Origin: a phage
Assembly: GCA_024613925.1 (NCBI GenBank)
Contig: GCA_024613925.1_4713.1
Length of the DNA: 64,000 nucleotides
Strand: one strand, 5' to 3'
The notes under the pieces were generated by a model. It was not told the origin of the DNA, did no database searches, and saw nothing but the letters and a program-made list of their open reading frames with translations. Shown piece after piece: positions 23,780-45,675 of this stretch (its first letter is position 1; the number at the start of each line of letters is the position of its first letter). A program made the position numbers and the translations under genes.

Positions 23780-25354
23780 TTACAATTCAAAATCTTCATC
23801 GATAACGCGCTGGGTAAGCACTTTGTCGCTGAAGAACTCCACCTTGCGCTGATGGTATTTACGGTGCGCTTCAATAGAAGTACATACCAGATACCAGAAC
23901 GTTGGTGTCATTCCTTCAAACTTCCCTTTCAGCTGACGCAGTCGCCCCAACACCTGAATGTTACCGGTTCGTGACCCCATCGCTAATGTCATGAACGTCA
24001 TCACCAAGTCAGGAAGGTCGATACCTGTACCTGCCGATTTCACGGTTGTAACGCTGATATCGTTATCCAACAAGACCATGAAATCTTCTTCAGCAGTATA
24101 AGGACCAATCTCTAACTCAGGAATACGTTCACTGAGATAATGCGATAACGACTTACACATATCAACGGTTGCACAATACACCAGCATCTTCATACCTTCC
24201 TGATACTGGTTCATGAAACCTTTGATGATAACCGTATAGATAAAGTTGAAATAGGCGAGTTTGAGTTGCTTGTTCTTCATGATAGACTGTTCGAATATCG
24301 TGTGAGAATAAGAACCCCCAAACCCTTTGTATCTGACTTTATCTGTACTGCGTAGTCGATACGTCACGGCATTTACCGCAATGTATTTCTTGTATTCGCA
24401 TTTCGCATAACGCGCTTCTTTCGGATACATCAAATACAACATCCGCTCGATGAACGGATCGTCAGACACCGCTGTTGCCGACAGATAGATGATTTCCGGA
24501 ATATTTGCATAGCACTTCACTTTGAACAAGAAATGCAAGGCTTCATGGCATTCATCGTGGATCAACAACCCAATACCTGTTTTCTCCCAGAACTCGGCGG
24601 GATGGAAAACATAAGGTGCGACACAATTGTTCTTTTCATAATCGGTTATGTATCTCTGAAACATGTTCAGCGAGAATAACGCAATTTTGAAATCCAGCTC
24701 ACCTTGTTCCACCAACGTCTGGAATTCCAGCATGCTGTAACGAGGAATGTCTGGATGCGGTGGGTCAGATTGGGCTGTACCGCGTATCTCGATAACATCG
24801 CCTGGTTCCATACCGAAGAAACTTAGCAACGAGCTGCGCCATCCAGGCATGTATCTCGGTGACAGAATAATGCCCGTCCGTACACCACGTCGGAAGGTGA
24901 TCTCCTGCGACATGGCTGTTTTACCACTGCCCGTGCCTGCGGTGTTTAGGCTCATTCTGAAGGGGGTATCCTTACCCCCATCCATGTACTCCAACCATTC
25001 TTGCTGATCTTCGCGCCACGGGAACTTCCATTTCTTTACGAACTCCACTTCCTTACCTGGCACCGGATCGTGATAAACGATTTCCAACCACTCTTTTCGG
25101 ATTCCTCGAGAGAAGATAAAATCCAAAAACGATTTCAACTGTTCACGGAGTAAGTATACCTCGCTATAATCGCTTCTTGCCGCGGCATACGTGTTTATGG
25201 TATCGGTAACCATTCTCCGTGTACGAGGGTCACGTCGTTTCCTCAGATGCAAACAACGGTCTCGAAGGTAATGGCCGATAAGATGGGCAAATCGAAGTCC
25301 GTATCCGCTCAGCCTCATGCCATGCGAGAAGACGTCGATACGAGCTAACTTCAT
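23780..25354 (-). CDS. SF2 DExH-box helicase-like protein
   Basis: 524 aa; Walker A GTGSGKT, DExH (LIHDECHE), motif III LSAT. Confidence 0.6.
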   Translation of the reverse strand: MKLARIDVFSHGMRLSGYGLRFAHLIGHYLRDRCLHLRKRRDPRTRRMVTDTINTYAAARSDYSEVYLLREQLKSFLDFIFSRGIRKEWLEIVYHDPVPGKEVEFVKKWKFPWREDQQEWLEYMDGGKDTPFRMSLNTAGTGSGKTAMSQEITFRRGVRTGIILSPRYMPGWRSSLLSFFGMEPGDVIEIRGTAQSDPPHPDIPRYSMLEFQTLVEQGELDFKIALFSLNMFQRYITDYEKNNCVAPYVFHPAEFWEKTGIGLLIHDECHEALHFLFKVKCYANIPEIIYLSATAVSDDPFIERMLYLMYPKEARYAKCEYKKYIAVNAVTYRLRSTDKVRYKGFGGSYSHTIFEQSIMKNKQLKLAYFNFIYTVIIKGFMNQYQEGMKMLVYCATVDMCKSLSHYLSERIPELEIGPYTAEEDFMVLLDNDISVTTVKSAGTGIDLPDLVMTFMTLAMGSRTGNIQVLGRLRQLKGKFEGMTPTFWYLVCTSIEAHRKYHQRKVEFFSDKVLTQRVIDEDFEL

Positions 25355-27357
25355 AACGTGATTACATCCTCCGGTTTAGGTTCTTTACGCGGTAACAGCA
25401 TGTAGTCGATCGGATGATCCGGCTTCATGGTTGGGATATAACTGTTCGGGTTTTGGAACGCATCCAGCTGCTCTTGGTGAGCGAACTTCATACTCAAGGA
25501 GCGCATGTTCATGTTCTTCTTGAAGGTACTGAAGTATCGTGTTGTTCCCTGTTTCGGCATGCGATAATCTTTCGTGTGTGGCGAACGAATCATGCTGGCG
25601 TAGAGAATAACATCGAGATGCGAAAGGTTCATTCGCAGACGCTGGGCACACAGACGATGCCAATAGTACAGCACGTTTGCAACTTCCTCCGGTGTTGCTT
25701 CGTCTTCCGAGAGGAATCCGGCACTGAAAGAACATTTCCCGAATTTGAACTCACGTTCGATTTCTTTTGCGTACTCCATCATGTTTTTGTGGATTAACGG
25801 CATCTGGAATAACGTACGTGAATTGTCCCAGTGTTTCAAGTCGAAAATCACAATCCCGTCAGACGTCACTTCCCAGCTATGGCGTTTGAGGTAACGGATA
25901 AACGCTTTACTCGGTACAACAGGACGACCACAGAAATCGAAATTGACTTTGAGCTTACGATAGCTTTCATCTTTCCTGTCGTAAATCTCCATATCGCAAA
26001 GCGTCATGTTAAACAGACGTTGCGGTATCAGCGAACTGATTTCTTCCGCTTCCGCTACGTCATACAACATGTTCGCAAGACCTAACTTCATCTTAATCAA
26101 CACGTGTTTACCTTTCAGCTCACGTGCGAGTTTGATGTCGTTCATGTTCTGGCTGTAGCGAAGGATATGTTGATATTCCGGTGGGATTGGTGCTGTGGAT
26201 ACCGTTGACGAACCATCGTGATGTTTGGTAGAAAGAATGTTCTGCGTTACCTGTTGCGAACAGGTACGTGCTGCACCATCACCGACATTATCAGTCAATG
26301 CGAAGTTATGACTTAATTCACCGTAACACGTCGTACATACCCCAGCAGGATCGGGATGATGACAATAGTTAACGGAGCGCATGCGTACCGTCGTACCAAT
26401 CAATTCTTTCATGTGTGGCTGTATCGCTACCAACGAACCGTCATCACGAATAATGAATCGACCGTGGAAGCCACGCAGGTCGGTCTCATCACGGATTGGC
26501 ATCGGGATGGTCTCTTTACTACCACAATCACCAGGATGGAGTCGCTGTACAACCGCCGTCGCTATCTGAAGTTCACGACCGAAATATTCAGACTTTTTAA
26601 TCTGCTCTTTGTTGAACAGCAACGATTTCGCCGCAGAACGACTTTCTTTCAAGCTGTCAGGAAGAGAGATCAAACCGGCTGCATACGACCGCATTACCGG
26701 ATCGCGGAATATCTCGGAGTTAATATCGGTCAAGAATCCACGCATCCCAATACACTGCAGCACCTGCCCAATCGAAACGTGTTCGGTTCTTACCGCACGT
26801 GCAATAGGGTTTGCATGTAGCGTTTTATCGGTGCTCAGTACCTTCGTCAGTTTCTTGTATGCGCTTTCAATGCCTTCGCGGGTGGGTTCCGCTTCGGCGA
26901 TGATTTTCTTAACTTCGGGATGTACGGTAATCTGATAAAAATCGTCCGCGCAAATCGTTGTTACGTATTCCTCCAACGCATACGTAAAGAAGTTATATAC
27001 ATTGTTAAACATATCGAACAATGCTTTCCAGAGAACCTCACGATTCTCTTGCGGATAAGCATACATGCATTGACGATACGCGGCGCTTTGCAACGCAACC
27101 GATGAACCCGCTGTGAACTTGCGTTTATCAACCAGGTTCTCTTTTGTCAGTGGGGTCTCAGGATACATGCGATGCACAGACCAGTGCATGTAACTAAAGA
27201 AAATGCGTCGCGCACGCAATTCATGAACGCCATCGTCCATCTCGATATACACACGGTCATTAGGCTGTGCCCACTCGAACACCTCATCAACCGGCCAATG
27301 CATAAGCTCGCGTGCCCTCACACGACGTTTCGTGGTGGTTGTCTGTGTTGTAATCAT
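25351..27357 (-). CDS. RNA polymerase beta-prime, C-terminal fragment
   Basis: 668 aa; MRSVNYCHHPDPAGVCTTCYGELSH resembles E. coli beta-prime VRSVVSCDTDFGVCAHCYG; also DS...SAAK and IGMRGF (cf. DSGARGSAAQ, AGMRGL). Alignment is by eye from memory. Confidence 0.65.
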   Translation of the reverse strand: MITTQTTTTKRRVRARELMHWPVDEVFEWAQPNDRVYIEMDDGVHELRARRIFFSYMHWSVHRMYPETPLTKENLVDKRKFTAGSSVALQSAAYRQCMYAYPQENREVLWKALFDMFNNVYNFFTYALEEYVTTICADDFYQITVHPEVKKIIAEAEPTREGIESAYKKLTKVLSTDKTLHANPIARAVRTEHVSIGQVLQCIGMRGFLTDINSEIFRDPVMRSYAAGLISLPDSLKESRSAAKSLLFNKEQIKKSEYFGRELQIATAVVQRLHPGDCGSKETIPMPIRDETDLRGFHGRFIIRDDGSLVAIQPHMKELIGTTVRMRSVNYCHHPDPAGVCTTCYGELSHNFALTDNVGDGAARTCSQQVTQNILSTKHHDGSSTVSTAPIPPEYQHILRYSQNMNDIKLARELKGKHVLIKMKLGLANMLYDVAEAEEISSLIPQRLFNMTLCDMEIYDRKDESYRKLKVNFDFCGRPVVPSKAFIRYLKRHSWEVTSDGIVIFDLKHWDNSRTLFQMPLIHKNMMEYAKEIEREFKFGKCSFSAGFLSEDEATPEEVANVLYYWHRLCAQRLRMNLSHLDVILYASMIRSPHTKDYRMPKQGTTRYFSTFKKNMNMRSLSMKFAHQEQLDAFQNPNSYIPTMKPDHPIDYMLLPRKEPKPEDVITL

Positions 27358-27502
27358 TATTACTTTCCGATTTAAATGGTTTTATCATACGGTTTACCAA
27401 TTCCGTTGGAATTTACTATCATCATGATAGCATCGGGAATCCCTTCTCTTAGGTTATGTAGGTGTTAATATATCTCCACTACCGGAGTAAAAGTCGGCAA
27501 CA

Positions 27503-27988
27503 TTACCCGGCTTTCTGTCGTAGAGCGTACGGATCCATAGCGTCTGATATATCCGAAACAACCGTGAGAATGAAGCCCTTTATCTGTCTCACTTCGGTCA
27601 CACGCAATCCTTTATCGTTACGATATACGTTTTCTTCACCAACCAACTTTGGTCGGATAACATAAACGCCATCAACAAACGGGAATGTCGAATACGGATA
27701 AACACCAATAGAAATGATGTTTGGATAATCGCCTCGAAGGTCACGTCCGAACTTATCGACTCGACCATAAATCGTTCCATCCGCACCCTCCACTTCAATG
27801 AGGTCGTTACGAATATCCTGAAATAGCTGTTCTAAGGTGTCGACAGGATACGTATATGCGACGCCTAACGCAGGATCCTCGATCGTTTTGACATTGAATC
27901 CGTTAAGCCAAACAATCCGTTCATTCGCCCATGTTTCTTCATATACCGTTAACCCATCGCCGTATATGTTGGCGTGTACTATCTCCAT
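27503..27988 (-). CDS. hypothetical protein
   Basis: 161-aa ORF. Confidence 0.5.
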   Translation of the reverse strand: MEIVHANIYGDGLTVYEETWANERIVWLNGFNVKTIEDPALGVAYTYPVDTLEQLFQDIRNDLIEVEGADGTIYGRVDKFGRDLRGDYPNIISIGVYPYSTFPFVDGVYVIRPKLVGEENVYRNDKGLRVTEVRQIKGFILTVVSDISDAMDPYALRQKAG

Positions 27989-28102
27989 AATCTCATTTCC
28001 TCTTCTACGTAGAAATAGATGACATGTTGGATATACGTTGCCTTTGCATATATTGCTTTATTTCCGTCAGAAATAACGGAAAATAAAAACAACGACATAA
28101 TT

Positions 28103-28132
28103 CCCTCCCACCTCCACATGGGAGAGGGAGGG
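28103..28132 (-). terminator. hairpin ccctccc / gggaggg (imperfect)
   Basis: After stop of 28146..28508. Confidence 0.4.
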
Positions 28133-28145
28133 TTATTCGTGTTTA

Positions 28146-28508
28146 TTATTCTACGCTGTCTTCTTCCGTATCGTCCTCTTCAGAACCATCGAATGTTTTC
28201 ATTGTGACGGTGGTATCCCAGTTAGCTGCGTAATCGGCCATCGCTTCACGCAATGCTTCTTCACCAGCATCACCAGCCAGGTCAAGTACAACCAAACCCT
28301 GTGCGACGTTTTGAGCAACGGTATCAATAACGGTTGCATCTTCTTCAAAACTACGTACGGGTTCAATGGTACCTACATCAACAGCGTAGTTCGTGGTTGC
28401 TGTAAACACGGCGACTTGTAGCGCATTGCTATCTTCATCATGCAGTGCTGCTTCAATACCGATTGGACGAGCCAGTTCTTGCAGTGTTAATTTGCGAATT
28501 AAGTTCAT
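28146..28508 (-). CDS. hypothetical acidic protein
   Basis: 120 aa, strongly acidic (ends ...DGSEEDDTEEDSVE). Confidence 0.5.
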   Translation of the reverse strand: MNLIRKLTLQELARPIGIEAALHDEDSNALQVAVFTATTNYAVDVGTIEPVRSFEEDATVIDTVAQNVAQGLVVLDLAGDAGEEALREAMADYAANWDTTVTMKTFDGSEEDDTEEDSVE

Positions 28509-28530
28509 TATGTTTTTCCTCAGGTGAATG

Positions 28531-28881
28531 TTAGCAATCGTTTAAAACTTTTTCGATACGATGGTTGACGAATTCATTGAACGACTCTTCGGCTTGTTCG
28601 ATAATTTCATCAACATCGATATCTAATTGTTGGGGTTGGATAACATGCTCTTTCATGGTTTCCAGCCAGTATTCAGCTTTAACCATAACGTTAGCGACGT
28701 GTTCGACCTGGCTGCGTATGTCGACGATCTGGCAATCAGGATTGTTAATATCGATGATGTGTCCGTGGTGTTTGATAAACCCTAACTTATTCGACGCCCT
28801 TACCGCATCGCGGGCAAGGTCTTGCAAGATTAAATTATTGACGTAGTTCACTGCTATGGAACGATTTTCTTTATCACTCAT
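28531..28881 (-). CDS. hypothetical protein
   Basis: 116-aa ORF. Confidence 0.5.
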   Translation of the reverse strand: MSDKENRSIAVNYVNNLILQDLARDAVRASNKLGFIKHHGHIIDINNPDCQIVDIRSQVEHVANVMVKAEYWLETMKEHVIQPQQLDIDVDEIIEQAEESFNEFVNHRIEKVLNDC

Positions 28882-28960
28882 ACCAGGGATCCTCTTTTAA
28901 GTGTTCACATTCTAGTGTTAAGCAGTTAAAATAAACCGTCCCTTTAATCAGCATAAACAT

Positions 28961-28989
28961 CCTCCTCCCACCACATGGGCAGGAGGAGG
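28961..28989 (-). terminator. hairpin cctcctcc / ggaggagg
   Basis: 8-bp stem, 13-nt loop, after stop of 29001..29411. Confidence 0.45.
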
Positions 28990-29000
28990 CGTAATATGCA

Positions 29001-29411
29001 TCAGAAAGGAGGACGATCTTTAAATTCTAGCAATGTATCTTCGAAGCAAGCGATAAGTTCAGACTGCAATTCGGTACGGCCTTGTTCACCGAAGAGTTCC
29101 AGCAACATTAACCCCCGAGCGGTCTTCGTAGCAACCTCTTCGCAGATGCGGAGATCGCGAACTTCATCATCGCCGACATCTTTACGTAACTGCGCTGCAA
29201 TGGGCTTAAGATTGCCGTTTTCATCGTGTTCGTCACGAAATGCATCATAAGCCGCATCGATGTTCGCGATCCGTGTCAATCCTTCAGAATCCCGCCAGTC
29301 TCGATATAATCCAAGCAGACGGTTATGATTCTTCGTTTTGACGTTCGGTGCTGGAAGGTTGCGCAACAGATGTGGTGTAATCATTGCTATCACGCTATCC
29401 GAATGATCCAT
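29001..29411 (-). CDS. hypothetical protein
   Basis: 136-aa ORF. Confidence 0.5.
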   Translation of the reverse strand: MDHSDSVIAMITPHLLRNLPAPNVKTKNHNRLLGLYRDWRDSEGLTRIANIDAAYDAFRDEHDENGNLKPIAAQLRKDVGDDEVRDLRICEEVATKTARGLMLLELFGEQGRTELQSELIACFEDTLLEFKDRPPF

Positions 29412-29422
29412 CGTATACCTCG

Positions 29423-31591
29423 TTAGCTTTCGCAGTCATCTGCGTCGATGATTTGTCCGCCAGCAACGTTCAGTTGATGATACAGAATCCTCAACGCACG
29501 GTTGCCGCCAATTGGATACTTCTCGAAGTTGGTCGCAATAGGAATCGCTGACGGTTTATCGGTCGCATAGATGCTTTCAGTGATGCTATCCACCTGTTTT
29601 GGATTGTTCGCATAATCCATAAAGACGCTTGCGAACCATCCGCCAGCAAAGGCGGTAACTTCGCGATGCTCAGATTCACCACAGTAACGAGTTGGTTGCT
29701 CTTTACCCGGAGAACTGTATTTATCGCTATTACTGAGTTTCGACGGTAATCCGTGCGCTTGCAGTTTAGGAATACCCACCGCTGACCAATCGTTCGCCGT
29801 CTTCTCCAGCATCATGATGTACGTGTCACCGATCGCAATATCGTTCTTGGTTGTCCGCCACTGCCCGGAACGCCCACGATACCGTACAGGACCTTTCTTC
29901 AACGGGAACTCACGAATCAGATTCTCCATACGTTCTGAACCTGCTGCGATACTGTCCGTCGGGATATAAACTTCCGTACCGTGGCGTTGTACGTACCGTA
30001 AATGATCCCATTTATCCTCATCCGTGATACAGTATTTTTCAACAACCTGTTCCACGAATTCAGGACTGACGATATAGTAGTAGCGCATCAGTGTGTTCCA
30101 AGCGGTCTCCAGATCGCCTGCATCCATCACCGGTTTCAGTTCACGCATGATCTGATCACCAACGCCGTTGATGTACGGTGCGTTAACACGACTTAAACTC
30201 ATCCTTTTGATTACCGTACTATCGTCGAACATGAAGTCCGCAACATTACCCCATTGGTCAACCGGCATTTCATCGTCTTCCATGATGTCGGTTACAACGA
30301 ATTTATCACCCGCCATACCGGTGAATTTAAACCCGATACCTGGAACAACGTCATACGTGTACGTGATGGTCACACGCCAATCATCGAGATTCTCTTTGCG
30401 GTAATCGCGGGTCGGTAGCACATGACGTAGCTGTCCGTTGGGATTGCGGATATCAATACCATGTTCAGCATCAGCCAGGTTCAACCACCACATCACCGTT
30501 TGATGATGACGTATCGGCGTACCAACGCGTTCACGTTCGTACTTACGAACAGCATCCTGAATTCGGGTGTAAAGCAAACCGATCGCGTTCTCGTATTTCA
30601 GGAATTGACGATACGGAGGACGCATCTTCTCTTCCATCATAATCGCACGCTCGCGGGCTTGACGTCCAGAACGACGATGTCGATCGCTGACAACATCGAT
30701 ATCCGTTACACGCGCATTCGGTTCCGCGTAAGTGAGATCATCGTAAACATAATCCACACGCTGAAGGTTACACGTCATCATGTCAACAACGCTGAGGATA
30801 GGATCGATTTCGCGTGTTGCTGCAAGCAACCCATCTTTACGAATACGCTCGCCGTTCTCGGGTATTGCTTGGTATACTTCGTCATCACCGTAGAGATTGA
30901 TTGGGTATCGCGATTTACCTGACGTGATTGTTCGCTTCTCAATACCTGTGCTGGTGAAATGCTTCAATACACCACGACGGGCAACGCCACCATCTTCAAT
31001 ACATTGGTAGAAGCTACCGAAACACACCTTGCAATCGCGACCGTAACCCCACTCACGTGTTTCTTGATTGATCGCTGGGCTTTCCATCAAACGAGAATAT
31101 CGCGGTACGATCTGGCCTCGACGGAGGGAATGGAACAAGTTGGTTGGTCGAAAACGGAAACCGTACTGCTGATGCATGATGTGATGCTCAGGCACTTCAA
31201 GCAAGCGTAGCTCGTGACGGTTACCATCCTCTTGGTTTTCGTACAGCACGTAATGCATCGTGTTTGTTTTGATGCTGTTTGCTGTATGCCCCGGTTGGAA
31301 ACGTGGGATGATATCTATGATGCGAGATTCGACTGGAAACTCTACTGACCACGTGTTCTGTCCGTACTGGTATTCGATCCCCGTCGTCAGTCGGGACGGT
31401 TTCGCATCTTTGATAACCAACGCTTGGCTAAGATGTCCACCAAACATCGCAGCGCGCTGTGCTGAGTTATAATGCAATAGCCCGTTAAGTCCAGTCCCTA
31501 CGCCAGTATACTCCTGTTTAATGGGAATGATTTTACCTTCAGCGATTGCCTGCTTCACAGATTCATAAAGAGGTTTTTCTTTATAATGCAT
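29423..31591 (-). CDS. RNA polymerase beta subunit (C-terminal two-thirds homolog)
   Basis: [36 protein letters not shown] resembles E. coli beta [50 protein letters not shown] resembles GGQRFGEMEVWALEAYG. Track ORF reaches 31756; start moved to Met56 (31591, AGGAAG upstream) to clear the divergent plus gene. Confidence 0.65.
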   Translation of the reverse strand: [722 protein letters not shown]

Positions 31592-31622
31592 AGGACTTCC
31601 TATTATCGAATTGAGGTACGTC

Positions 31623-31976
31623 ATGTCTAACACGCCCCTGAACGACTTTCTTAAGACAAACCCCGATGACCTCATCCACGATCTTGATTTCAGGAACGTT
31701 GTTGAGATGCATCTGGAATATTTCAAAAATGCCGGACTGGTCTCTACGATAGACATACCACCCGAACGTGCCTACGAATTCGATGGTAACTTTTATGGAT
31801 TGTGCCGTGTTCTGCTCGGTGAGGGCAGTGAACCAATGCACTGGATAACCATGAGACTCAATGGCTATCGTGACCCCACGGAATACACCGCCGATGTTCT
31901 AACCATGAAGATTGTCGATACAAGCGCAATCAACACATTAAAACAACAGTACCGCACAATCCACTACAGCGCTTAA
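31623..31976 (+). CDS. hypothetical protein
   Basis: 117 aa from ATG 31623 (GAGGT upstream); track lists a TTG start at 31611. Confidence 0.5.
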   Translation: MSNTPLNDFLKTNPDDLIHDLDFRNVVEMHLEYFKNAGLVSTIDIPPERAYEFDGNFYGLCRVLLGEGSEPMHWITMRLNGYRDPTEYTADVLTMKIVDTSAINTLKQQYRTIHYSA

Positions 31977-31981
31977 GATAA

Positions 31982-32010
31982 CCCTCCCACAGCGTAAAGC
32001 GTAGGGAGGG
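31982..32010. terminator. hairpin ccctccc / gggaggg between convergent genes
   Basis: 7-bp stem, 15-nt loop. Confidence 0.5.
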
Positions 32011-32041
32011 CATTTATGCCGTCGTTCGATGACTTAATACA

Positions 32042-34965: not shown

Positions 34966-36552
34966 TTATTTTTTTCCTCTTAAATTTACTACGTGTTCAT
35001 TTAATCGAACAACTAATTGCACAAGCTGCTGACGGATATCTGCTGGACAAAGCATCAATCCCTTACGGTCAGCTGGGACTTTCTCAAGGATTTCCGGGCC
35101 TGCTGCTGAAACATCCCAGTCCCATTCACAAAACGCATCGGCCACCATGTTAATACCGACAACCGGTAAAGTTGTACGTTCATCTTCATACATGGCGTGT
35201 GGATACAATTTATTGACAGTAATGATCTCCTGTGGTTTTAATTGGTGGATAATCTGATAAACATCGTCACGTTTAACCTGGATGCCTACGGTCAGCGCTG
35301 CCAGTTGAGGAAAACCCCAATGGTCTAATAAGCAAGCTGCAATCGCTAACGCTTTTGCCTGATGCACGGCTTCAATCGGTGCCAGACTTCTCGCCGGAAG
35401 ATGGCTATCAAGCAACCATTGTGCCAGTGCTCGGCATCCACGGTTGATTGGTTTTAACTCAACGGTGTCATCATGTTTAGCGTACGTGTATCCGTCGTAA
35501 CGTTTTGCGATACGCGCATACATGTCTTCAACTTTACCGTAAGGTGCTGTTTCGTCGACGTCGTGCAACACACGTTCCATCTGGGTAAGATACGCGATAT
35601 CAAGAATGAGTACACGCGGTGAACGTTTATCTTTCACCATCAACGCATCAATCACGCCTTGACTGTCTTCATCTTGCGCGTTCCCTCGTGGGGTTTTCTC
35701 ACGAATCGGTCCACTGAAACGTCGTTCCGTACAAAGGTTATTCACATAGCTAAAGATCAGTGTTACCAGATGCGTACAACTCACCAACACCCCATCTTTA
35801 ACGACAGGCTGTACGGCTTGGTCCAAGTCGCGTACGGCGAGACGACGGACGATGGCTTGTGAACGCAACCAACCGGGCACTTTCTCCGTCGACATGTAAT
35901 CCACGGTCATCGACAGCGTGATCTTTTTATCACCCGTCTGTGCGCGGATATAATCTTCCAGTCGGTCGTAAGCGGCGATATCATGAATGCGTGTTTTATA
36001 CATCAACGACATAGCCACTTCTTCTTTACGGACTGTCCCGTACGTTTTCCCTGCGTCAATCAGAAACTCTGCCCAAATCGGCACCATCAGACGGACGTAG
36101 ATCGCTAACGCCGTTAACTCAACGTAATCATTTCGTAAATAGGTTTTCTCAGGTATGTCATCCTCACCTAATGTTGTTTTCATGTCCGGTGGTAATTTTA
36201 CCCAACCTGGGGTATTACACAACGCCAGAATCTCTTCATACACAACCGGTTTGTAAATTTCACCAACAGCGCGACTCAACTCCTCCATTTGTTGTTGTGG
36301 AGCAATGTAGTTATCCATCGCTTCACGTGCTTTAACGAACCCTTCGAAGATGTCGTCAATTCGACGTGGGTTCTTTTGTTCTATCCAGGCGAGATACTTG
36401 TTAATCTCCCGCATCTGATTACTAGCCATATCCCCATCGATCTTGATATAACCCTGACCTGAAAATTCCACAGTACGTCCATCACGGTGTTTGATGAGGT
36501 AGTGATCCAGCTTTTCTTTTCCTTGCGTCGTAATGACGGGCACTATGTGCAT
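34966..36552 (-). CDS. hypothetical protein
   Basis: Track ORF reaches 36687; start moved to MHIVPV (36552, AGAGGT 6 nt upstream). Confidence 0.5.
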   Translation of the reverse strand: MHIVPVITTQGKEKLDHYLIKHRDGRTVEFSGQGYIKIDGDMASNQMREINKYLAWIEQKNPRRIDDIFEGFVKAREAMDNYIAPQQQMEELSRAVGEIYKPVVYEEILALCNTPGWVKLPPDMKTTLGEDDIPEKTYLRNDYVELTALAIYVRLMVPIWAEFLIDAGKTYGTVRKEEVAMSLMYKTRIHDIAAYDRLEDYIRAQTGDKKITLSMTVDYMSTEKVPGWLRSQAIVRRLAVRDLDQAVQPVVKDGVLVSCTHLVTLIFSYVNNLCTERRFSGPIREKTPRGNAQDEDSQGVIDALMVKDKRSPRVLILDIAYLTQMERVLHDVDETAPYGKVEDMYARIAKRYDGYTYAKHDDTVELKPINRGCRALAQWLLDSHLPARSLAPIEAVHQAKALAIAACLLDHWGFPQLAALTVGIQVKRDDVYQIIHQLKPQEIITVNKLYPHAMYEDERTTLPVVGINMVADAFCEWDWDVSAAGPEILEKVPADRKGLMLCPADIRQQLVQLVVRLNEHVVNLRGKK

Positions 36553-37545: not shown

Positions 37546-37618
37546 TTTCAGCCTCGTTACGTAGTGTGAATCAATTTCTGGTTCAGATGATAGTCAATAT
37601 TAGTTAAAAATTACAGCC

Positions 37619-40748: not shown

Positions 40749-40761
40749 GAGGAACTCCTCT

Positions 40762-41235: not shown

Positions 41236-41289
41236 TTCATAGAGTGGTGGAAATTCGTAGAAAGTTACAAAAATAAAAAAGAATGGGCA

Positions 41290-41319
41290 GCCTCTCCCCA
41301 CCCGAAGGTAGGGAGAGGC
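41290..41319 (-). terminator. hairpin gcctctccc / gggagaggc
   Basis: 9-bp stem, 12-nt loop, 12 nt after stop of 41331..41816. Confidence 0.5.
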
Positions 41320-41330
41320 CGCAAATATAT

Positions 41331-41816: not shown

Positions 41817-41880
41817 TAGGATTTAATTTCCAATATAAGGACTATGTGATATGCCTTATACAGTCGATTGATGTTGTACA

Positions 41881-41905
41881 TCACCTAAGTAATATAGCCG
41901 TGAAA
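41881..41905 (-). promoter_or_regulatory. conserved promoter-like motif (minus-strand reading TTTCACGGCTATATTACTTAGGTGA)
   Basis: 65 nt upstream of start of 41331..41816. Confidence 0.45.
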
Positions 41906-41914
41906 AATGTTGGA

Positions 41915-42712
41915 TTAACGTGTTCTCCTATCCCGATGCGTATACGACTGAAGACCGATGTCCATATGCGGTAACGTTAGCGTCTGCCAGATCTGTCGTG
42001 CGTAGCGATCAAGCGTATGATCGTCAGTAACACAATCGACGGGTTCGATGAGGTGAGTCGTATACTGGCTTTTCTCAGAGAAAGGTTCGAGGTTAGCTGT
42101 ATCTCCTAATCCGCTTTTCACCGTGAAGACAAGACGTGTGACTATCATCGCTTTATGTTGCTGTTCATTATAACGAAGGCTGCGGTATACTGCATAGCTC
42201 CCTCCTTTTAAGCTTCGGGTATAACGAAGGTCGGAGGTCGTCTCGGAAATCTGATACAGCATCCAATCCAACGTATCTCGCCAGTACGCATCATCCACAT
42301 CAGGAACCGTAATACCGTACCGCGTAGGCAGCAATTCTAAAAGCAATTTATAAAGTCCGCGACGCAAGCCATGCTCTTCTGTTTCCGACAAGCCGTTTCC
42401 AACGTAACGTGAAATACGTGTACGTAAATACGTACGGATGAACATATTCGCCATCAGTGTTTTCACTCTGCTACTGGTATCCTCAAAGCGATCAACGCTG
42501 AAACTCGTTTCAATCAACCGTCCATTAAAATACAATGCGGCAACATACATCGCGTTATTACTATCACGTTCAATGTTTAAACGGCCGCAGATATTGGCTG
42601 CGTCGTTCATGGTAAATTCTAATTTATCGTGTTCGATACGATAGATAATATCCTCTTGGGTTGCTAGGCTCGCAATGCGACGATAGCCCGGAGAAGTACG
42701 TTTTACACTCAT
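41915..42712 (-). CDS. hypothetical protein
   Basis: Track ORF 41915..42751; start moved to Met14 (GAGGA 5 nt upstream) to clear the hairpin. Confidence 0.5.
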   Translation of the reverse strand: MSVKRTSPGYRRIASLATQEDIIYRIEHDKLEFTMNDAANICGRLNIERDSNNAMYVAALYFNGRLIETSFSVDRFEDTSSRVKTLMANMFIRTYLRTRISRYVGNGLSETEEHGLRRGLYKLLLELLPTRYGITVPDVDDAYWRDTLDWMLYQISETTSDLRYTRSLKGGSYAVYRSLRYNEQQHKAMIVTRLVFTVKSGLGDTANLEPFSEKSQYTTHLIEPVDCVTDDHTLDRYARQIWQTLTLPHMDIGLQSYTHRDRRTR

Positions 42713-42754
42713 GATTGTCCTCGTTTTCAATTTTAAGATTGCATGCGGCATAAA

Positions 42755-42779
42755 CCCTCCCCGCCTTATGCAGGGAGGG
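42755..42779 (-). terminator. hairpin ccctccc / gggaggg
   Basis: 7-bp stem after stop of 42795..43433. Confidence 0.5.
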
Positions 42780-42794
42780 TAGCCATTAAATGGA

Positions 42795-43433
42795 TTAACC
42801 TAATTTACCACCGGCGATATTGGTGAAATCTTCGCCATCAGGAACTTGCAGTAGGATACGTGCCATGTCCCAGTTGGTTAGTGTGATTGCTTTATCATCG
42901 ATACTCAGTTCTGGTAGGTCGAGTTCATGATCATCAAACTCGTAGGAAATACTCCACGTTTCGTCTGTTTTAGGATCGGTTATCAACACACCGTCTGTTA
43001 CACGCATGTAGTCCGGATGCAGTTCATTACTGAACGTGCTGAACGGATCGGTGTAACATTCAGCATACCCCTCGATCTGCTGACGTTGTGCCTTCGTACG
43101 TAATTCAGGGCACGCCATGATCAGTTGTCGAGATATACCGTTTGCCGCACGGAAGTCTTCCACGGTGATACATGGCATAACCACATCGTCATGGAAGATG
43201 TTCTCCGATTGTCTCAACAGCGTCTTACGGAGTTCAGCATAGTTTATCTGATTGAACGCATCGAACGTTGCTAACGATTCAGCGTAAAAATGCTTTACGT
43301 GTTCGCTTGCGCCGCCGAGGCTATTCATCAGCTTGTGGCCGTACTCCATAAAGCTTTTATCGAGACCGGAGGACATTTCTCCGAACCTCAGTGCACGATA
43401 ACTGTCTCGTCCACCTGTAAATATTTGCGCCAT
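42795..43433 (-). CDS. hypothetical protein (possibly a further RNAP beta-prime segment)
   Basis: 212 aa; AAGGAGG 10 nt upstream of its ATG, overlapping the stop of the 43449..43694 exon; homology to beta-prime not demonstrable by eye. Confidence 0.5.
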   Translation of the reverse strand: MAQIFTGGRDSYRALRFGEMSSGLDKSFMEYGHKLMNSLGGASEHVKHFYAESLATFDAFNQINYAELRKTLLRQSENIFHDDVVMPCITVEDFRAANGISRQLIMACPELRTKAQRQQIEGYAECYTDPFSTFSNELHPDYMRVTDGVLITDPKTDETWSISYEFDDHELDLPELSIDDKAITLTNWDMARILLQVPDGEDFTNIAGGKLG

Positions 43434-43448
43434 TACAGGCGTCCTCCT

Positions 43449-43694
43449 TTAGCAATGGTTGTTAGTTGCTTCTATTTCGTCAAGATACGGTTCTACGTCA
43501 TCGCCCTCCACGAATTCGTTGAACCAACAGTCAATGGTAGAAATAACCGGCGACTGGTGTTCACATTTCTTAGATACCTTAAAAGGTACGTTATTATCCA
43601 TCATACCGAGTTCGGGTCGAAAACGCCCGAAATGTTTCGCAGTCCAAATATCTGGGACGATATGGTTGTTCATCGTAGTGTTCAGCATGAGTCG
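43449..43694 (-). CDS. RNA polymerase beta-prime N-fragment, exon 3 (or separately translated 79-aa segment from ATG 43688)
   Basis: Reading from 43694: RLMLNTTMNNHIVPD resembles E. coli beta-prime ARALMMSTNNILSPAN, directly downstream of NADFDGD in the alignment. Begins CGAC after G43695. Confidence 0.5.
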   Translation of the reverse strand, partial: RLMLNTTMNNHIVPDIWTAKHFGRFRPELGMMDNNVPFKVSKKCEHQSPVISTIDCWFNEFVEGDDVEPYLDEIEATNNHC

Positions 43695-44028
43695 CTACCT
43701 CATACCCGCAGCTTTACCTGCAGCTTCCGGTGTTACCGGAATGACCAGAATACATCTTATCCATATTCCAAATGGAACGTAGGACTTCCGCGCTGGATCT
43801 CGCTTGAGACCACGTATTCGTTGAACGTTCTCCTGAACGGAGCTTCGCTGCTGATCGAACATTGTCACGTACGGTAGGCGTCCCCGAAGGGATTGTCATT
43901 GAAGCCGCGTACATCCGCTACCTTGTTTCTACCTTATCGGTTCCTCTTACGAGGCGTAGCGGCCTTAGCCCTTCCCAGCAATTCACGGAATCCAAGCTCT
44001 TCCTTTCGGAAGGCAGGGCCTATGATTA
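43695..44028 (-). ncRNA. group I intron-like core, copy 2
   Basis: Minus-strand P (AATTGCTGGGAAG, 43983..43971), Q (GATCAGCAGC, 43856..43847), R (GTTCAACGAATACG, 43826..43813), S (AAGATGTATTCTGG, 43758..43745). P4 and P7 pairings hold with compensatory changes relative to copy 1. No ORF on coding strand. No IGS identified for its 5' junction. Confidence 0.5.
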
Positions 44029-44041
44029 AGCGTCACCGTCG
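44029..44041 (-). CDS. micro-exon CGACGGTGACGCT encoding the catalytic D-G-D of beta-prime
   Basis: Only GAYGGNGAY in the 725-nt interruption; follows G44042; joins exon 1 (...AAC GCA GAT TT) in frame to give NADFDGDA; CGACGGU is complementary 7/7 to ACCGUCG at 44375..44369 (P10). Confidence 0.55.
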
Positions 44042-44419
44042 CTGTTTATCGACTATATCTTCATCCTCGTTGCGAGGAGTCTCCCGTTTTGGTCTGTGTT
44101 TAACAGAGCCTACTCTACTCGACATCGCGTCTTTCGATAGTCTGTGAGCACACATCTTAACGAACATTCGTGGATTCCTAAACAGGTGAATGTTCTTGTT
44201 GAGATGCTTCGCTGCGGATTATTCCCGTCCTACCTCTTTTACCATATCCAGTTCATTACGCTGGCCCTCATCTGTGTCACCACGATGAGTTGGTGTGTAG
44301 TCCGATTACAGAAACTTCCCGTCAATTAGAGAGTTTTAACTATGTTCCTGTTACCAGAAACCAGATCCCGACGGTATCAATAAATCAACGTAAGTTATTG
44401 AATTTATTGAAAAAAACTG
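44042..44419 (-). ncRNA. group I intron, copy 1
   Basis: Minus-strand P (AATTGACGGGAAG, 44327..44315), Q (AATCCGCAGC, 44220..44211), R (GCTCACAGACTATCG, 44149..44135), S (AAGATATAGTCG, 44061..44050) match the classical consensus elements from memory. IGS GGAUCUG (44368..44362) pairs with exon-1 end CAGAUUU with U-G at the splice site; ends with G44042. Confidence 0.7.
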
Positions 44420-45675
44420 AAATCTGCGTTATAACCTTTGAGGATCATCACGCTTAACCCGATGGTGTTATCCTGCGGATCGCGTTTAACCTTGGTGATT
44501 TCAAGACATTGGTTACTGCTTCGGTCAAGTGATGGGTTTCGAACAAAACCACACACAATCCCATCGAACGGTGTATCAGCAATAAGCTCATCGTGCAGCT
44601 CGCTCATCATCGGATGATAATTACGGACATGTTCCGCAACGAACGCACGTGCTGCTCTCGGTGAATACCCACGATGGAATAGCTTGGATTGGATATGTTC
44701 TTTATTGGTTAAAGTAAATGGTGCGTATGGGAAATGCAGATGATAATAACGATGGTTCGCTGTTATCGAACTGATTACGGTACGCGTGGTGAATGGATGT
44801 AATGTACCTAATATGTTTTTACGTGTGATACCTTTCTTCTTACCGATGAACTCATCGAAAATCGCCGCATGGTATTGCAGCAGCTTCAATTGCACTTTCG
44901 CCATCCAGTTTTCTTTCTTTCTGGCGCTCAAAGGTGTTGTTGGATGATAGATGCTATTCAACGTACCGATAGCATCGATCGCACCTTCCATTTTGCTATC
45001 CGCATAACGACCGGTTGGCGTATTCTCGATAACGAACATCATGGCCGCAGGAAAGCTGATATACTGGCTGAAGAACTTATCACGATGGATACGGATGAAT
45101 TCTCGTAGTGTGTCAACTTTCTCCGTGTTCTTCGGTCCACGTAACGTCGGTCCTTTATACAAGATCTCCATGATGCGATCGAAGTTCTGTATAAAACTAT
45201 TTACGCCACGACGTATCCCGAATACATCGAATTGCTGCTCCAGATAGTTCTTGAGTTCGATGGGTCGTTTTACATTTGGACGGTAACTGGCATCAATGAG
45301 CCACGTCATCGTTTCAAAGCTTTTGATATTCAACTCGCTTGCCAGCACGAGATGGACCAACGGGTTAATGAACGCATCGATTCCTTCAGGAACGCGCGCC
45401 CAAACCGTCGAACGAATCTCTTGTTCTGCTGGGTAGGTTACAACCGTTTTACAGTTTGGACACACCGTGCCGAGCAGCTCACCACGATTGTAGAAACCAC
45501 AACCACATTGTGGTGTGATATCCAACGTATCGCTGGAGTAAACACGGGTGATAAAACTGTTTAATTTCTTCTTCTCTTCGACGACTTTTGTATCGTAATC
45601 GTTCAACAAAATCGGCGTAAAAGGAAGTTCTGCGAGCTGTCTATCGAAACTCACGATATCGAGCATGATGGCCAT
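44420..45675 (-). CDS. RNA polymerase beta-prime N-terminal fragment, exon 1
   Basis: GKKKGITRKNILGTLHPFTTRTVI resembles E. coli [31 protein letters not shown] resembles LNRAPTLHR; unspliced ORF ends ...GYNADF then SFFQ-stop, i.e. inside NADFDGD. N-terminal C-x-C...C-x-x-C zinc motif. AGGAGA upstream of ATG 45675. Confidence 0.7.

What the first reader, a model, noticed from the sequence alone, without database searches (positions are those of the whole stretch)
25351..45675. RNAP subunit genes are split and dispersed (beta-prime C and beta at 25-31 kb, beta-prime N at 43-45 kb)
Three ORFs carry bacterial-type RNAP motifs but are fragments, and beta-prime N is 15-18 kb from beta-prime C. I recall this as the hallmark of phiKZ-like jumbo phages, which encode their own virion and non-virion RNAPs. 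These fragments may belong to one or two enzymes, and no beta N-terminal fragment was recognised in the window.
Basis: partly seen in the sequence, partly recalled or inferred. Interest (0 to 1): 0.55.

Follow-up and report, generated by a model that had tools for sequence, protein, structure and literature searches.

The report
Jumbo-phage RNA polymerase genes, intron-split active site
The window comes from a close relative of E. coli jumbo phage Goslar and carries four of the five genes of the phage's own non-virion RNA polymerase, which is ordinary for this phage family; less ordinary, the gene holding the catalytic site is cut by two self-splicing introns only 13 bases apart.

Summary
The window is 97% identical to Escherichia phage Goslar, a phiKZ-like nucleus-forming jumbo phage.

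The three ORFs match subunits of a single enzyme, the non-virion RNA polymerase:
- 25351-27357: beta-prime C, like phiKZ gp74.
- 29423-31591: beta C, like gp71/73.
- 44404-45675: beta-prime N, like gp55.

A fourth subunit, like gp68, lies between them at 34966-36552. The "dispersal" is the conserved phiKZ gp54-gp75 gene order. Beta N and all the virion polymerase genes lie outside the window. All of this is already known biology.

Two group I introns (44419-44042 and 44028-43674) flank a 13-nt mini-exon, CGACGGUGACGCU. Joining the three exons gives a 497-aa protein reading ...YNADFDGDAMNNH.

These junctions are supported by:
- guide sequences in each intron that pair with the joined exons;
- base-pair covariation;
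- near-identical relatives that lack the intron at a given site;
- a public contig 100% identical to Goslar with both introns precisely removed.

Goslar-like genomes carry six intron combinations at four sites (five counting phiKZ's) within 26 nt. The window's first intron lacks the HNH endonuclease gene found in Goslar.

The parts
25351..27357 (-). Non-virion RNA polymerase beta-prime C-terminal subunit (phiKZ gp74 orthologue, 668 aa). Its stop overlaps the start of the downstream helicase gene by 4 nt.
   Evidence: PHROG 3015 at E 6e-170. PDB 7ogp_D (PHIKZ074) at E 2e-86. blastp to gp74 at 7e-95 against the virion paralogue gp80 at 0.003.
29423..31591 (-). Non-virion RNA polymerase beta C-terminal subunit (phiKZ gp71/73 orthologue, 722 aa from the ATG at 31591). 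It is uninterrupted here, whereas the phiKZ gene carries an intron with the gp72 ORF.
   Evidence: PHROG 3295 at E 2e-180 and weak Pfam Rpb2_6. PDB 7ogp_C at E 1e-85. One ORF covers both gp71 and gp73. Start site chosen from the ribosome-binding site and the Goslar annotation.
34966..36552 (-). Fifth non-virion RNA polymerase subunit (phiKZ gp68 orthologue, 528 aa from the ATG at 36552).
   Evidence: tblastn with phiKZ gp68 at E 2e-35. PDB 7ogp_B/9rjs_B (PHIKZ068) at E 5e-28. AAGAGG ribosome-binding site upstream of 36552.
44420..45675 (-). Beta-prime N gene, exon 1 (1256 nt). It ends ...AAC GCA GAU UU, that is N-A-D plus the first two bases of the Phe codon.
   Evidence: PDB 7ogp_A (PHIKZ055) at E 4e-62. 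In the genome the ORF reads on into the intron as ...GYNADFSFFQ*.
44042..44419 (-). Group I intron 1 (378 nt, no ORF). The last exon base is U and the last intron base is G (44042). The guide sequence CCGUCGGGAUCU lies at 44374-44363.
   Evidence: Rfam Intron_gpI at 44.6 bits, E 4e-8 over the whole window, just under the curated cut-off of 50. The guide pairs with the joined junction AGAUUU|CGACGG over 12 bp, two of them G-U. Exon and guide covary between the window and Goslar.
44029..44041 (-). 13-nt mini-exon CGACGGUGACGCU. It completes the Phe codon and encodes D-G-D-A, including two of the three catalytic aspartates.
   Evidence: Sequence. Without it no DGD is available in frame. Present and contiguous in the intron-free contigs L032 and L031 and in the alleles L025 and L019.
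43674..44028 (-). Group I intron 2 (355 nt, no ORF). Its guide sequence UCAUAGGC lies at 44025-44018 and its terminal G at 43674. It is related to the phiKZ gene 55 intron.
   Evidence: Rfam gives only a partial hit (16.7 bits). An alignment with two homologues folds into a group I-type topology, assigned here as P2-P9.2 plus the P7 pseudoknot: 98.6% of cells paired and 30 of 94 pairs with compensatory changes, against 1-2 in shifted controls. The 3' end CUGAACACUACG resembles phiKZ's CUGAACAAUACG.
43449..43673 (-). Beta-prime N gene, exon 3 (74 codons plus stop, MNNHIVPD...NNHC*). Goslar annotates it as a separate hypothetical protein, gp185.
   Evidence: Aligns with the C-terminus of mature phiKZ gp55 (PHIKZ056.1) once the exons are joined. 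Matches uninterrupted relatives P0002 and P0003.
45768..47663 (-). Chimallin (nuclear shell protein). This is a context marker showing the block is the phiKZ gp54-gp55 neighbourhood.
   Evidence: Pfam Chimallin_Phikzvirus at E 4e-28 and the PHROG 'nuclear shell protein' family.
23780..25354 (-). Helicase (phiKZ gp75 orthologue). This is the context marker closing the conserved block.
   Evidence: tblastn with gp75 at E 1e-49. PHROG 16 'DNA helicase'.

Best explanation
The window is a stretch of a Goslar-like nucleus-forming jumbo phage.

**Gene assignment.** The three ORFs, plus a fourth that was not recognised, encode four of the five subunits of one enzyme, the phiKZ-type non-virion RNA polymerase:
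- beta-prime N, like gp55;
- the gp68-like fifth subunit;
- beta C, like gp71/73;
- beta-prime C, like gp74.

They sit in the same order as phiKZ genes 54 to 75. The fifth subunit, beta N (like gp123), and the whole virion-packaged polymerase are encoded elsewhere in the genome. By analogy with phiKZ (inferred, not tested here), the five proteins assemble into an alpha-less, rifampicin-insensitive polymerase that transcribes middle and late phage genes.

**The split active site.** The beta-prime N gene is itself broken. Two ORF-less group I introns of 378 and 355 nt lie 13 nt apart inside the codons of the Mg-binding motif NADFDGD.
- Intron 1's internal guide pairs with the end of exon 1 (AGAUUU) and with the first six bases of the mini-exon (CGACGG).
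- Intron 2's guide lies next to its 5' end. It pairs with the last bases of the mini-exon and with the first four bases of exon 3 (AUGA).

Two self-splicing reactions join exon 1, the mini-exon CGACGGUGACGCU and exon 3. The result is an mRNA for a 497-aa subunit reading ...GYNADFDGDAMNNHIVPD....

**What is shown and what is inferred.** Shown by sequence and comparison: the gene assignments, the intron structures, the junctions, and a Goslar-identical contig with both introns exactly removed. Inferred: that splicing is autocatalytic in vivo, the order of the two reactions, and the enzyme's role.
For: **Identity of the window.** It is 96.9% identical to Goslar over 20.3 kb.

**Subunit assignment.**
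- PDB matches: 7ogp chain A at 4e-62, chain D at 2e-86, chain C at 1e-85 and chain B at 6e-28.
- Reciprocal BLAST against all nine phiKZ polymerase subunits picks only non-virion partners.
- tblastn shows the window is collinear with phiKZ gp50 to gp75.
- The virion genes and beta N are found in Goslar outside the window.

**Introns.**
- The ORF stops as ...NADFSFFQ*, inside the catalytic motif.
- Rfam scores intron 1 at 44.6 bits, E 4e-8.
- Intron 2's family folds into a group I-type topology. 30 of 94 pairs show compensatory changes, and no shuffle out of 500 reached the observed percentage paired, number of pairs or cells with compensatory change, or covariation score.
- In the P7 helix, two of the five pairs carry compensatory changes across the three aligned copies.

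**Junctions.**
- The 12-bp guide of intron 1 matches the joined exons.
- That guide covaries with synonymous exon changes: window AGAUUU/GGAUCU, Goslar CGACUU/GAGUCG.
- Uninterrupted relatives read YNADFDGDAMNHH (P0002, 65% identical) and YNADFDGDEMNNH (P0003).
- Near-identical alleles L025 and L019 carry ...UUC GAC GGN GAC GCN AUG AAC contiguously.
- Joining the exons raises Pfam Rpb1_2 from 15.8 to 36.9 bits (cut-off 25.3). It also extends the alignment to mature phiKZ gp55 through to residue 476.
- The exact predicted 497-aa proteins of both Goslar and the window exist in public assemblies.
- Contig L032 is 100.000% identical to Goslar over 6.7 kb, with both introns (1440 and 355 nt) precisely absent.
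Against: - No transcript data were inspected directly. I could not verify the library type of SRR32224763, so L032 could in principle be an intron-free Goslar derivative rather than cDNA.
- Intron 1 scores just under Rfam's curated cut-off (44.6 against 50).
- Intron 2 gets only a partial 16.7-bit Rfam hit.
- P1 of intron 2 is short: 3 bp, or 7 of 9 if extended. In the window its splice-site U can pair with either A or G.
- The covariation alignment has only three sequences.
- Enzyme assembly and function are inferred from phiKZ, not tested.
Confidence: 0.92

Rival explanations
1. The fragments belong to two different enzymes: a mixture of virion-packaged and non-virion RNA polymerase subunits.
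For: phiKZ-like phages do encode two split polymerases. The beta-prime C ORF gives a weak paralogous hit to the virion subunit gp80 at E 0.003.
Against: Every ORF's best phiKZ partner is a non-virion subunit by 35 to 90 orders of magnitude. The gene order equals phiKZ gp54-gp75. Goslar's homologues of gp80, gp149, gp178 and gp180 map to 88 kb, 229 kb and 207-215 kb of that genome, outside the window.
Confidence: 0.02
2. The beta-prime N gene is truly truncated or decaying. The 423-aa ORF and the downstream 79-aa ORF are separate products or pseudogene remnants, and the material between them is non-functional debris of old mobile elements.
For: GenBank and RefSeq annotate them as separate CDSs, gp247 and gp185. 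Rfam scores are below the curated cut-off. Intron 1 in the window has lost the endonuclease gene.
Against: - The 423-aa ORF lacks the DGD of the catalytic triad, so an essential polymerase would be inactive.
- The missing codons sit exactly between the two ribozyme cores.
- Both intervening sequences keep group I pairings with compensatory changes.
- Their guide sequences track exon changes.
- Contigs with precisely joined exons exist.
Confidence: 0.03
3. There is one composite intervening element, either a twintron (an intron nested in an intron) or a single long intron with duplicated cores, rather than two independent introns separated by a real exon.
For: The two cores are only 13 nt apart. 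Other group I introns of the same locus share a conserved 3' region.
Against: - The 13 nt between them are kept in the intron-free contigs and encode the required (F)DGDA.
- Each intron occurs alone, or in other combinations, in near-identical genomes.
- Each has its own guide sequence matching its own junction.
Confidence: 0.02

Closest known systems
phiKZ non-virion RNA polymerase (gp55, gp68, gp71/73, gp74, gp123; PDB 7OGP/7OGR)
   Same: Four orthologous subunits are present, each matching the corresponding PDB chain over most of its length. The gene order matches from chimallin to the gp75 helicase. The beta-prime subunit has the NADFDGD catalytic loop once the exons are joined. Beta N is encoded far away next to the major capsid gene, as in phiKZ.
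   Different: - Protein identity is about 24-31%.
- Beta C is uninterrupted here, while phiKZ has an intron with the gp72 ORF.
- About 2 kb of small ORFs (27503-29411) separates beta C from beta-prime C, whereas in phiKZ these genes are adjacent.
- Beta-prime N has two introns at sites different from phiKZ's single intron.
Escherichia phage vB_EcoM_Goslar (NC_048170), genes gp165, gp171, gp175, gp247, gp186 and gp185
   Same: 96.9% nucleotide identity, the same genes, and the same two intron positions.
   Different: Goslar's intron 1 carries a 336-aa HNH/NUMOD1 endonuclease gene (gp186). It sits in the loop of a 14-bp terminal hairpin just before the 3' splice site. The window lacks the hairpin and ORF cleanly, a 1065-bp difference. 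The record annotates only one intron, and annotates the exons as separate genes.
phiKZ gene 55 group I intron (with the HNH gene gp56)
   Same: It interrupts the same gene in the same catalytic motif. Its core and 3' end resemble window intron 2. The mature protein in PDB 7OGP joins PHIKZ055 to PHIKZ056.1.
   Different: phiKZ has a single intron, inserted between the Asn and Ala codons (AAU|GCU). It carries the endonuclease ORF near its 5' end and scores 75.6 bits in Rfam. The window has two ORF-less introns, 8 and 21 nt further downstream.
Multi-intron phage genes and intron-endonuclease competition: Twort orf142 (three group I introns, exon skipping), the SPO1/SP82 DNA polymerase introns, Bastillevirinae, Jug phages, and PhiPA3 gp210
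   Same: Self-splicing group I introns sit in conserved active-site codons of essential phage genes. Closely related phages differ in which introns are present. HNH endonucleases of the HNH_3/NUMOD1 type are involved, with a weak sub-threshold I-HmuI-like NUMOD hit for Goslar's. Sources: PMC11620839, PMC11878797, PMC12880540. The Twort and SPO1 work is known to me only from citations in those papers and from memory.
   Different: Here two or three introns are stacked 13 nt apart, and four insertion sites (five with phiKZ's) fall within 26 nt of one catalytic loop. I found no paper describing this for Goslar or for any non-virion polymerase gene. The library searched is incomplete.

Membership tests
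phiKZ-type non-virion multisubunit RNA polymerase | Separate beta-prime N, beta-prime C and beta C polypeptides homologous to gp55, gp74 and gp71/73 | tested here: met
   PDB 7ogp chains A, D and C at E 4e-62, 2e-86 and 1e-85. Reciprocal BLAST picks the non-virion paralogues.
phiKZ-type non-virion multisubunit RNA polymerase | A fifth, lineage-specific subunit (gp68-like) | tested here: met
   ORF 34966-36552. tblastn at E 2e-35, and PDB PHIKZ068 at E 5e-28.
phiKZ-type non-virion multisubunit RNA polymerase | A beta N subunit (gp123-like) | tested here: not met
   Not in the window: best tblastn E is 2.4. It is present in the Goslar genome as gp039 at E 3e-53, outside the window. The family criterion is therefore met by the genome, not by this window.
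phiKZ-type non-virion multisubunit RNA polymerase | An intact Mg-binding NADFDGD loop in beta-prime | tested here: met
   Absent from the genomic ORF (NADFSFFQ*) and restored by joining the three exons. Pfam Rpb1_2 then scores 36.9 bits against a cut-off of 25.3.
phiKZ-type non-virion multisubunit RNA polymerase | Not packaged in virions; transcribes middle and late genes | not testable with these tools
   Needs proteomics or transcription assays.
phiKZ-type virion RNA polymerase (gp80, gp149, gp178, gp180) | Homology to the virion subunits | tested here: not met
   tblastn of all four subunits on the window gives E above 0.7, apart from the paralogous gp80 hit at 0.005 on the gp74-like ORF.
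Group I intron (intron 1, 44419-44042) | Match to the Rfam RF00028 covariance model at the curated cut-off | tested here: inconclusive
   44.6 bits against a gathering score of 50. E is 4e-8 for the whole window, with a full-length model match 1-253.
Group I intron (intron 1, 44419-44042) | U before the 5' splice site paired to G in P1, a terminal G, and P10 pairing to the 3' exon from one continuous guide sequence | tested here: met
   The guide CCGUCG-GGAUCU pairs with AGAUUU|CGACGG. Exon and guide covary with Goslar.
Group I intron (intron 2, 44028-43674) | Match to the Rfam RF00028 model at the curated cut-off | tested here: not met
   Only a partial hit: 16.7 bits, model positions 50-157. 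Its phiKZ relative scores 75.6 bits.
Group I intron (intron 2, 44028-43674) | Conserved P3-P9 core, including the P7 pseudoknot, supported by covariation | tested here: met
   98.6% of cells paired and 30 of 94 pairs with changes on both sides, against 1-2 in shifted controls. Two P7 pairs are compensated. Only three sequences were available.
Group I intron (both introns) | Self-splicing that yields precisely joined exons | tested here: inconclusive
   Contig L032 equals Goslar with both introns exactly removed. This is most simply cDNA, but I could not check the library type. Autocatalysis was not tested.
Mobile intron with a homing endonuclease | An endonuclease ORF inside the intron | tested here: not met
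   Neither intron in the window carries the endonuclease ORF. The window lacks the 1065 bp that hold the HNH gene in Goslar's intron 1.

The most novel reading that the evidence does not exclude
The 26 nt that encode the catalytic loop of the non-virion polymerase beta-prime subunit may be a contested landing strip for a swarm of related group I introns.

Counting phiKZ, five insertion sites fall within those 26 nt. Among 13 Goslar-like genomic alleles there are six intron combinations, and none is intron-free.

The 13-nt mini-exons would be the shortest spacing that still leaves about six bases for the upstream intron's P10 and about six for the downstream intron's P1. On this reading, stacked introns persist because each one destroys the target of a neighbour's HNH endonuclease. 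That would give immunity in co-infections of the kind shown for PhiPA3 gp210. It would also make synthesis of the polymerase's catalytic subunit depend on two or three ribozyme reactions.
Probability: 0.4. Interest if true: 0.65.

Novelty: new variant of a known kind. Interest (0 to 1): 0.45.

Why it matters
The finding as handed over is textbook for this phage family, and the genome is a near-copy of a sequenced phage. That part adds nothing new beyond a correct assignment: one enzyme, four of its five subunits, in conserved gene order.

**Annotation.** Public Goslar-type records split the catalytic subunit into a truncated "RNA polymerase beta subunit" and a "hypothetical protein", and they mark only one intron. 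The real product is a 497-aa protein made from three exons, one of them 13 nt long.

**Biology.** The allele series gives a natural experiment on how closely group I introns can be packed, on whether their splicing must be ordered, and on intron-endonuclease competition between co-infecting jumbo phages. The series comprises introns at four sites (five with phiKZ's) within 26 nt, with and without HNH genes, in genomes about 97% identical. Goslar grows on E. coli, so these questions can be tested at the bench.

Tried and rejected
- **Rfam at curated thresholds over the whole window** found nothing. Only the E-value mode exposed intron 1, and intron 2 only weakly.
- **Pfam on the genomic ORFs** gave only sub-threshold hits. 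PHROGs and PDB sequence searches were needed.
- **Beta N and virion subunits in the window.** tblastn was negative. I checked that this was not a sensitivity failure by finding all of them in Goslar outside the window.
- **Alternative 3' splice sites for intron 2** (exon 3 starting at CUG AAC ACU ACG...). Rejected for four reasons: it adds 3-4 residues relative to all homologues; the phiKZ intron ends with the homologous CUGAACAAUACG; P10 fits AUGA; and alleles L025, L019 and L032 read GCN AUG AAC.
- **Exon skipping** (exon 1 joined directly to exon 3). This gives a frameshift and stop...NADL*.
- **P0001 (449 aa)** looked like a longer variant of the protein. It is exon 1 read through into a third intron.
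- **Literature searches** for a description of the Goslar polymerase introns, or of mini-exons between phage group I introns, found none. The Goslar genome paper does not mention introns or RNA polymerase at all.
- **A covariance model for the intron-2 family** was not built, because the 366-column alignment was expected to exceed the calibration time limit. No structure prediction was run, because sequence matches to solved phiKZ subunits were already decisive.

Full report
**1. What the window is.**
The span 25351-45675 matches Escherichia phage vB_EcoM_Goslar over its full length at 96.9% identity. The window as a whole is collinear with Goslar positions of roughly 124-189 kb. Goslar is a phiKZ-like, nucleus-forming jumbo phage. 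The window carries its chimallin gene at 45768-47663 (Pfam Chimallin_Phikzvirus, E 4e-28), a DNA polymerase, and a region matching Goslar's annotated PhuZ gene.

**2.
All three ORFs are on the minus strand at the stated coordinates.
- 25351-27357: PHROG 3015 at E 6e-170, and phiKZ gp74 in PDB 7OGP at E 2e-86. Weaker hits fall on the C-terminal half of bacterial beta-prime.
- 29423-31756: PHROG 3295 at E 2e-180, and phiKZ gp71/73 at E 1e-85. Weak hits fall on the C-terminal part of bacterial beta and on Pfam Rpb2_6.
- 44404-45675: PHROG 2987 at E 2e-117, and phiKZ gp55 at E 4e-62.

The likely start of the beta C gene is 31591 rather than 31756.

**3. One enzyme, not two, and not really dispersed.**
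I compared the ORFs with all phiKZ polymerase subunits. Each pairs with a non-virion subunit: gp74 at 7e-95, gp71 at 9e-42, gp73 at 3e-39 and gp55 at 9e-66. The best virion paralogue is gp80 at 0.003.

tblastn of phiKZ gp50 to gp75 onto the window shows an unbroken shared order. It runs DNA polymerase, gp52, chimallin, gp55, gp59, gp62, SbcD-like gp65, gp66, gp67, gp68, gp69, gp70, gp71/73, gp74 and helicase gp75. The 17 kb between the beta-prime N and beta-prime C genes is therefore a conserved block.

Inside that block, ORF 34966-36552 is the orthologue of gp68, the fifth non-virion subunit (tblastn E 2e-35; PDB PHIKZ068 E 5e-28).

Beta N (gp123-like) and the virion subunits are not in the window. 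As a positive control, the same queries find them in Goslar:
- gp039 at about 40 kb, next to the major capsid gene as in phiKZ;
- gp078;
- gp196;
- gp205 and gp207.

**4. The beta-prime N ORF ends inside the catalytic motif.**
Its last residues are ...GYNADF-SFFQ*, so the invariant NADFDGD is cut after F. The PHROG profile has about 59 further positions that the ORF does not cover.

Downstream on the same strand, Rfam finds a full-length group I intron match at 44367-44042: 44.6 bits, E 8e-10 locally and 4e-8 for the whole window, just under the curated score of 50. It also finds a second, partial match at 43990-43786 of 16.7 bits.

Between the two lies ...CAG|CGACGGUGACGCU|UAAUC.... This contains GAC GGU GAC, which is D-G-D. 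The ORF that Goslar annotates as hypothetical gp185 begins ...MNNHIVPD. That aligns with the residues following NADFDGD in uninterrupted homologues such as PhiPA3 gp54, 201phi2-1 gp107 and Noxifer gp51, which read NADFDGDQLNLTLMPD.

**5. Splice model.**

| Element | Window coordinates (minus strand) | Size |
|---|---|---|
| Exon 1 | 45675-44420 | 1256 nt |
| Intron 1 | 44419-44042 | 378 nt |
| Mini-exon | 44041-44029 | 13 nt |
| Intron 2 | 44028-43674 | 355 nt |
| Exon 3 | 43673-43449 | 225 nt |

The joined message encodes 497 aa...ILKGYNADFDGDAMNNHIVPD....
- Both 5' exons end in U and both introns end in G.
- Intron 1 carries the guide 5'-CCGUCG-GGAUCU-3' at 44374-44363. It is complementary to the joined junction AGAUUU|CGACGG over 12 bp, two of them G-U. 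Six of these pairs form P1 and six form P10.
- In Goslar the exon reads CGACUU and the guide reads GAGUCG. Two synonymous exon changes are therefore matched by changes in the guide.
- Intron 2 has its guide, UCAUAGGC, a few bases after its 5' end. It pairs with GCU|AUGA. In locus L017 the junction is GCC|AUG and the guide is CAUGGC, which is again matched.

**6. Intron 2 is a real ribozyme-type RNA.**
I aligned it with two homologues from L017 (82-86% identity over aligned positions, by a gap-permissive alignment with a background near 70%). The alignment folds into a group I-type topology, which I read as P2, P3, P4, P5 with an extension, P6, P8, P9, P9.1 and P9.2.

With the P7 pseudoknot added, 98.6% of cells pair. 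30 of 94 pairs show changes on both sides, against 1-2 when partners are shifted by 1-3 columns. No shuffle out of 500 reached the observed percentage paired, number of pairs or cells with compensatory change, or covariation score. In P7, two of the five pairs carry compensatory changes across the three copies.

The phiKZ gene 55 intron has a similar core and 3' end and scores 75.6 bits in Rfam. The caveat is that only three sequences were available for the covariation test.

**7. Independent checks of the junctions.**
- (a) Uninterrupted relatives from metagenomes read ...GYNADFDGDAMNHH (P0002, 65% identical, with chimallin upstream) and ...YNADFDGDEMNNH (P0003).
- (b) In near-identical genomes that carry an intron at another site, the DNA is contiguous across my two junctions. 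L025 reads AU AAU GCU GAU UUC GAC GGG GAC GCG AUG AAC. L019 reads GAC UUU GAC GGC GAC GCA AUG AAC.
- (c) Joining the exons lifts Pfam Rpb1_2 from 15.8 to 36.9 bits (cut-off 25.3). It also extends the alignment to mature phiKZ gp55 from residue 420 to residue 476, improving E from 4e-62 to 1e-74. The PDB entry itself names that chain PHIKZ055 plus PHIKZ056.1, which are exons joined across the phiKZ intron.
- (d) The exact 497-aa sequences predicted for the window and for Goslar both exist in the 15-billion-protein collection. The Goslar version lies on contig L032 (Logan assembly of SRR32224763). That contig is 100.000% identical to Goslar over 1475 + 5225 nt, with both introns (1440 and 355 nt) precisely missing. 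The simplest reading is assembled cDNA, which would be direct evidence of splicing. I could not verify the library type.
- (e) The window's version lies on L031, an intron-free contig from a different, roughly 98% identical strain.

**8. The endonuclease difference.**
Goslar has 1065 bp that the window lacks. They hold gp186, which has HNH_3 and NUMOD1 domains and a weak, sub-threshold I-HmuI-like NUMOD hit. The gene sits in the loop of a perfect 14-bp hairpin, UUACGUGCACCGAC...GUCGGUGCACGUAA, placed one base before the terminal G of intron 1. The window reads GAUAA-ACA-G at that point. The window's intron 1 therefore carries no endonuclease ORF.

**9. A crowded insertion hot spot.**
I compared related loci from IMG/VR, metagenomes and Logan assemblies. 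Sites are numbered from the first base of the Tyr codon, as U1AU AAC GCA GAU UUC GAC GGU GAC GCU27.

| Site | Position | Codon context |
|---|---|---|
| a | after base 1 | inside the Tyr codon |
| b | after base 6 | Asn\|Ala; phiKZ only |
| c | after base 9 | Ala\|Asp |
| d | after base 14 | inside the Phe codon |
| e | after base 27 | after DGDA |

| Intron combination | Genomes |
|---|---|
| d (with HNH) + e | Goslar |
| d + e | the window |
| a + d + e | L011, L018, L022, L023, L024, L026 |
| c + e | L017 |
| c only | L019, L020, L021 |
| a only (with a 324-aa HNH-type ORF) | L025 |

- The three-intron alleles have two 13-nt mini-exons, AUAAUGCAGAUUU and CGACGGGGAUGCU.
- In both 13-nt mini-exons the first half pairs with the upstream intron's guide as P10 and the second half with the downstream intron's guide as P1. 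This suggests that about 13 nt is close to the smallest workable spacing. That is my inference.
- Synonymous differences are visibly dense in these codons among genomes that are about 97% identical overall.

**10. Comparison with what is known.**
Split virion and non-virion polymerases are the defining transcription machinery of phiKZ-like phages (review PMC7598289). Group I introns with HNH genes in their polymerase genes are also known: phiKZ gp56 and gp72 (and the gp179 ORF between gp178 and gp180), and PhiPA3 gp210, which acts in competition between co-infecting phages (PMC11620839). Phage genes with two or three group I introns are known as well, in Bastillevirinae and Jug phages (PMC11878797, PMC12880540). 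Twort is cited in those papers.

I found no description of the tandem arrangement, the 13-nt mini-exons or the allele series at the non-virion beta-prime catalytic loop. The Goslar genome paper does not mention introns or RNA polymerase. The Goslar records annotate one intron and treat the exons as separate genes.

**11. Verdict.**
The finding as written is correct and is already-known biology, now resolved to one enzyme with four of its five subunits in conserved order. The added value is the exon-intron structure of the catalytic subunit gene and its population polymorphism. This is a new variant of a known kind of element. It is of moderate interest and can be tested directly in an E. coli phage.

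Noticed in passing
window 44043-44045, compared with L001 24693-25757: Goslar carries a 1065-bp cassette that the window lacks: a 14-bp inverted repeat plus the HNH/NUMOD1 gene gp186, one base before the 3' end of intron 1. The window reads GAUAA-ACA-G at that point. This looks like clean gain or loss of an endonuclease module, independent of the intron.
   Followed up: yes
L011 1468-1833; also L018, L022, L023, L024 and L026: Six Goslar-like contigs have a third group I intron of about 366 nt (Rfam 31 bits). It is inserted at the window-equivalent position 44434/44433, inside the Tyr codon. This creates a second 13-nt mini-exon, AUAAUGCAGAUUU.
   Followed up: yes
L025 858-2241: One allele has only the Tyr-codon intron, and there it is 1384 nt long with a 324-aa HNH-type ORF near its 5' end. 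Downstream the coding sequence is contiguous. I did not test whether this ORF is related to Goslar gp186 or phiKZ gp56.
   Followed up: partly
L017 5252-5601 and 5620-5976; L019-L021 4751-5101: A homologue of window intron 2 sits at a different site in these genomes, between the Ala and Asp codons. In L017 it is accompanied by the site-e intron, giving an 18-nt mini-exon. In L019-L021 it is the only intron. The same intron family therefore occupies several sites in this 26-nt stretch.
   Followed up: yes
L032 (Logan SRR32224763) and L031 (Logan SRR17070135): L032 is 100% identical to Goslar over 6.7 kb, with both introns exactly removed. It is probably cDNA. L031 is an intron-free version from a strain about 98% identical, whose hot-spot codons are the same as the L017 exons. 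The library types are unknown.
   Followed up: partly
alignment A1 columns 7-9 with 361-363 (window about 44022-44020 with 43679-43677): RNAalifold paired three bases of intron 2's guide region with three bases just before its terminal G. All three sequences differ there (U-A, A-U, G-C). This may be an alternative or P9.0-like contact, or it may be chance.
   Followed up: no
window 27503-29411, minus strand: Several small ORFs, four of them 116-161 aa and mostly acidic (Goslar annotates five here, gp166-gp170), lie between the beta-prime C and beta C genes. They have no counterpart in phiKZ, where gp73 and gp74 are adjacent. Goslar annotates them as hypothetical. Function unknown.
   Followed up: no
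window 29423-31591: The beta C gene is uninterrupted here. Its phiKZ orthologue is split by an intron carrying the gp72 ORF. Intron occupancy therefore differs gene by gene between the two phages.
   Followed up: partly
protein cluster of P0001: The cluster has 159 members. Among the listed members are truncated exon-1 ORFs of 421-449 aa, which sources name as hypothetical proteins of Salmonella enterica, E. coli, Shigella sonnei and Enterobacter hormaechei (a Shigella flexneri member is a 79-aa exon-3 ORF). They sit on contigs of about 236-247 kb. Goslar-like phage genomes appear to be common passengers in enterobacterial genome assemblies.
   Followed up: no
Goslar 207-215 kb (L028 16724-24764), outside the window: Goslar's virion polymerase genes gp207 and gp205 are separated by another annotated group I intron and an ORF resembling phiKZ gp179. 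The same layout is seen in phiKZ gp178-gp180.
   Followed up: no
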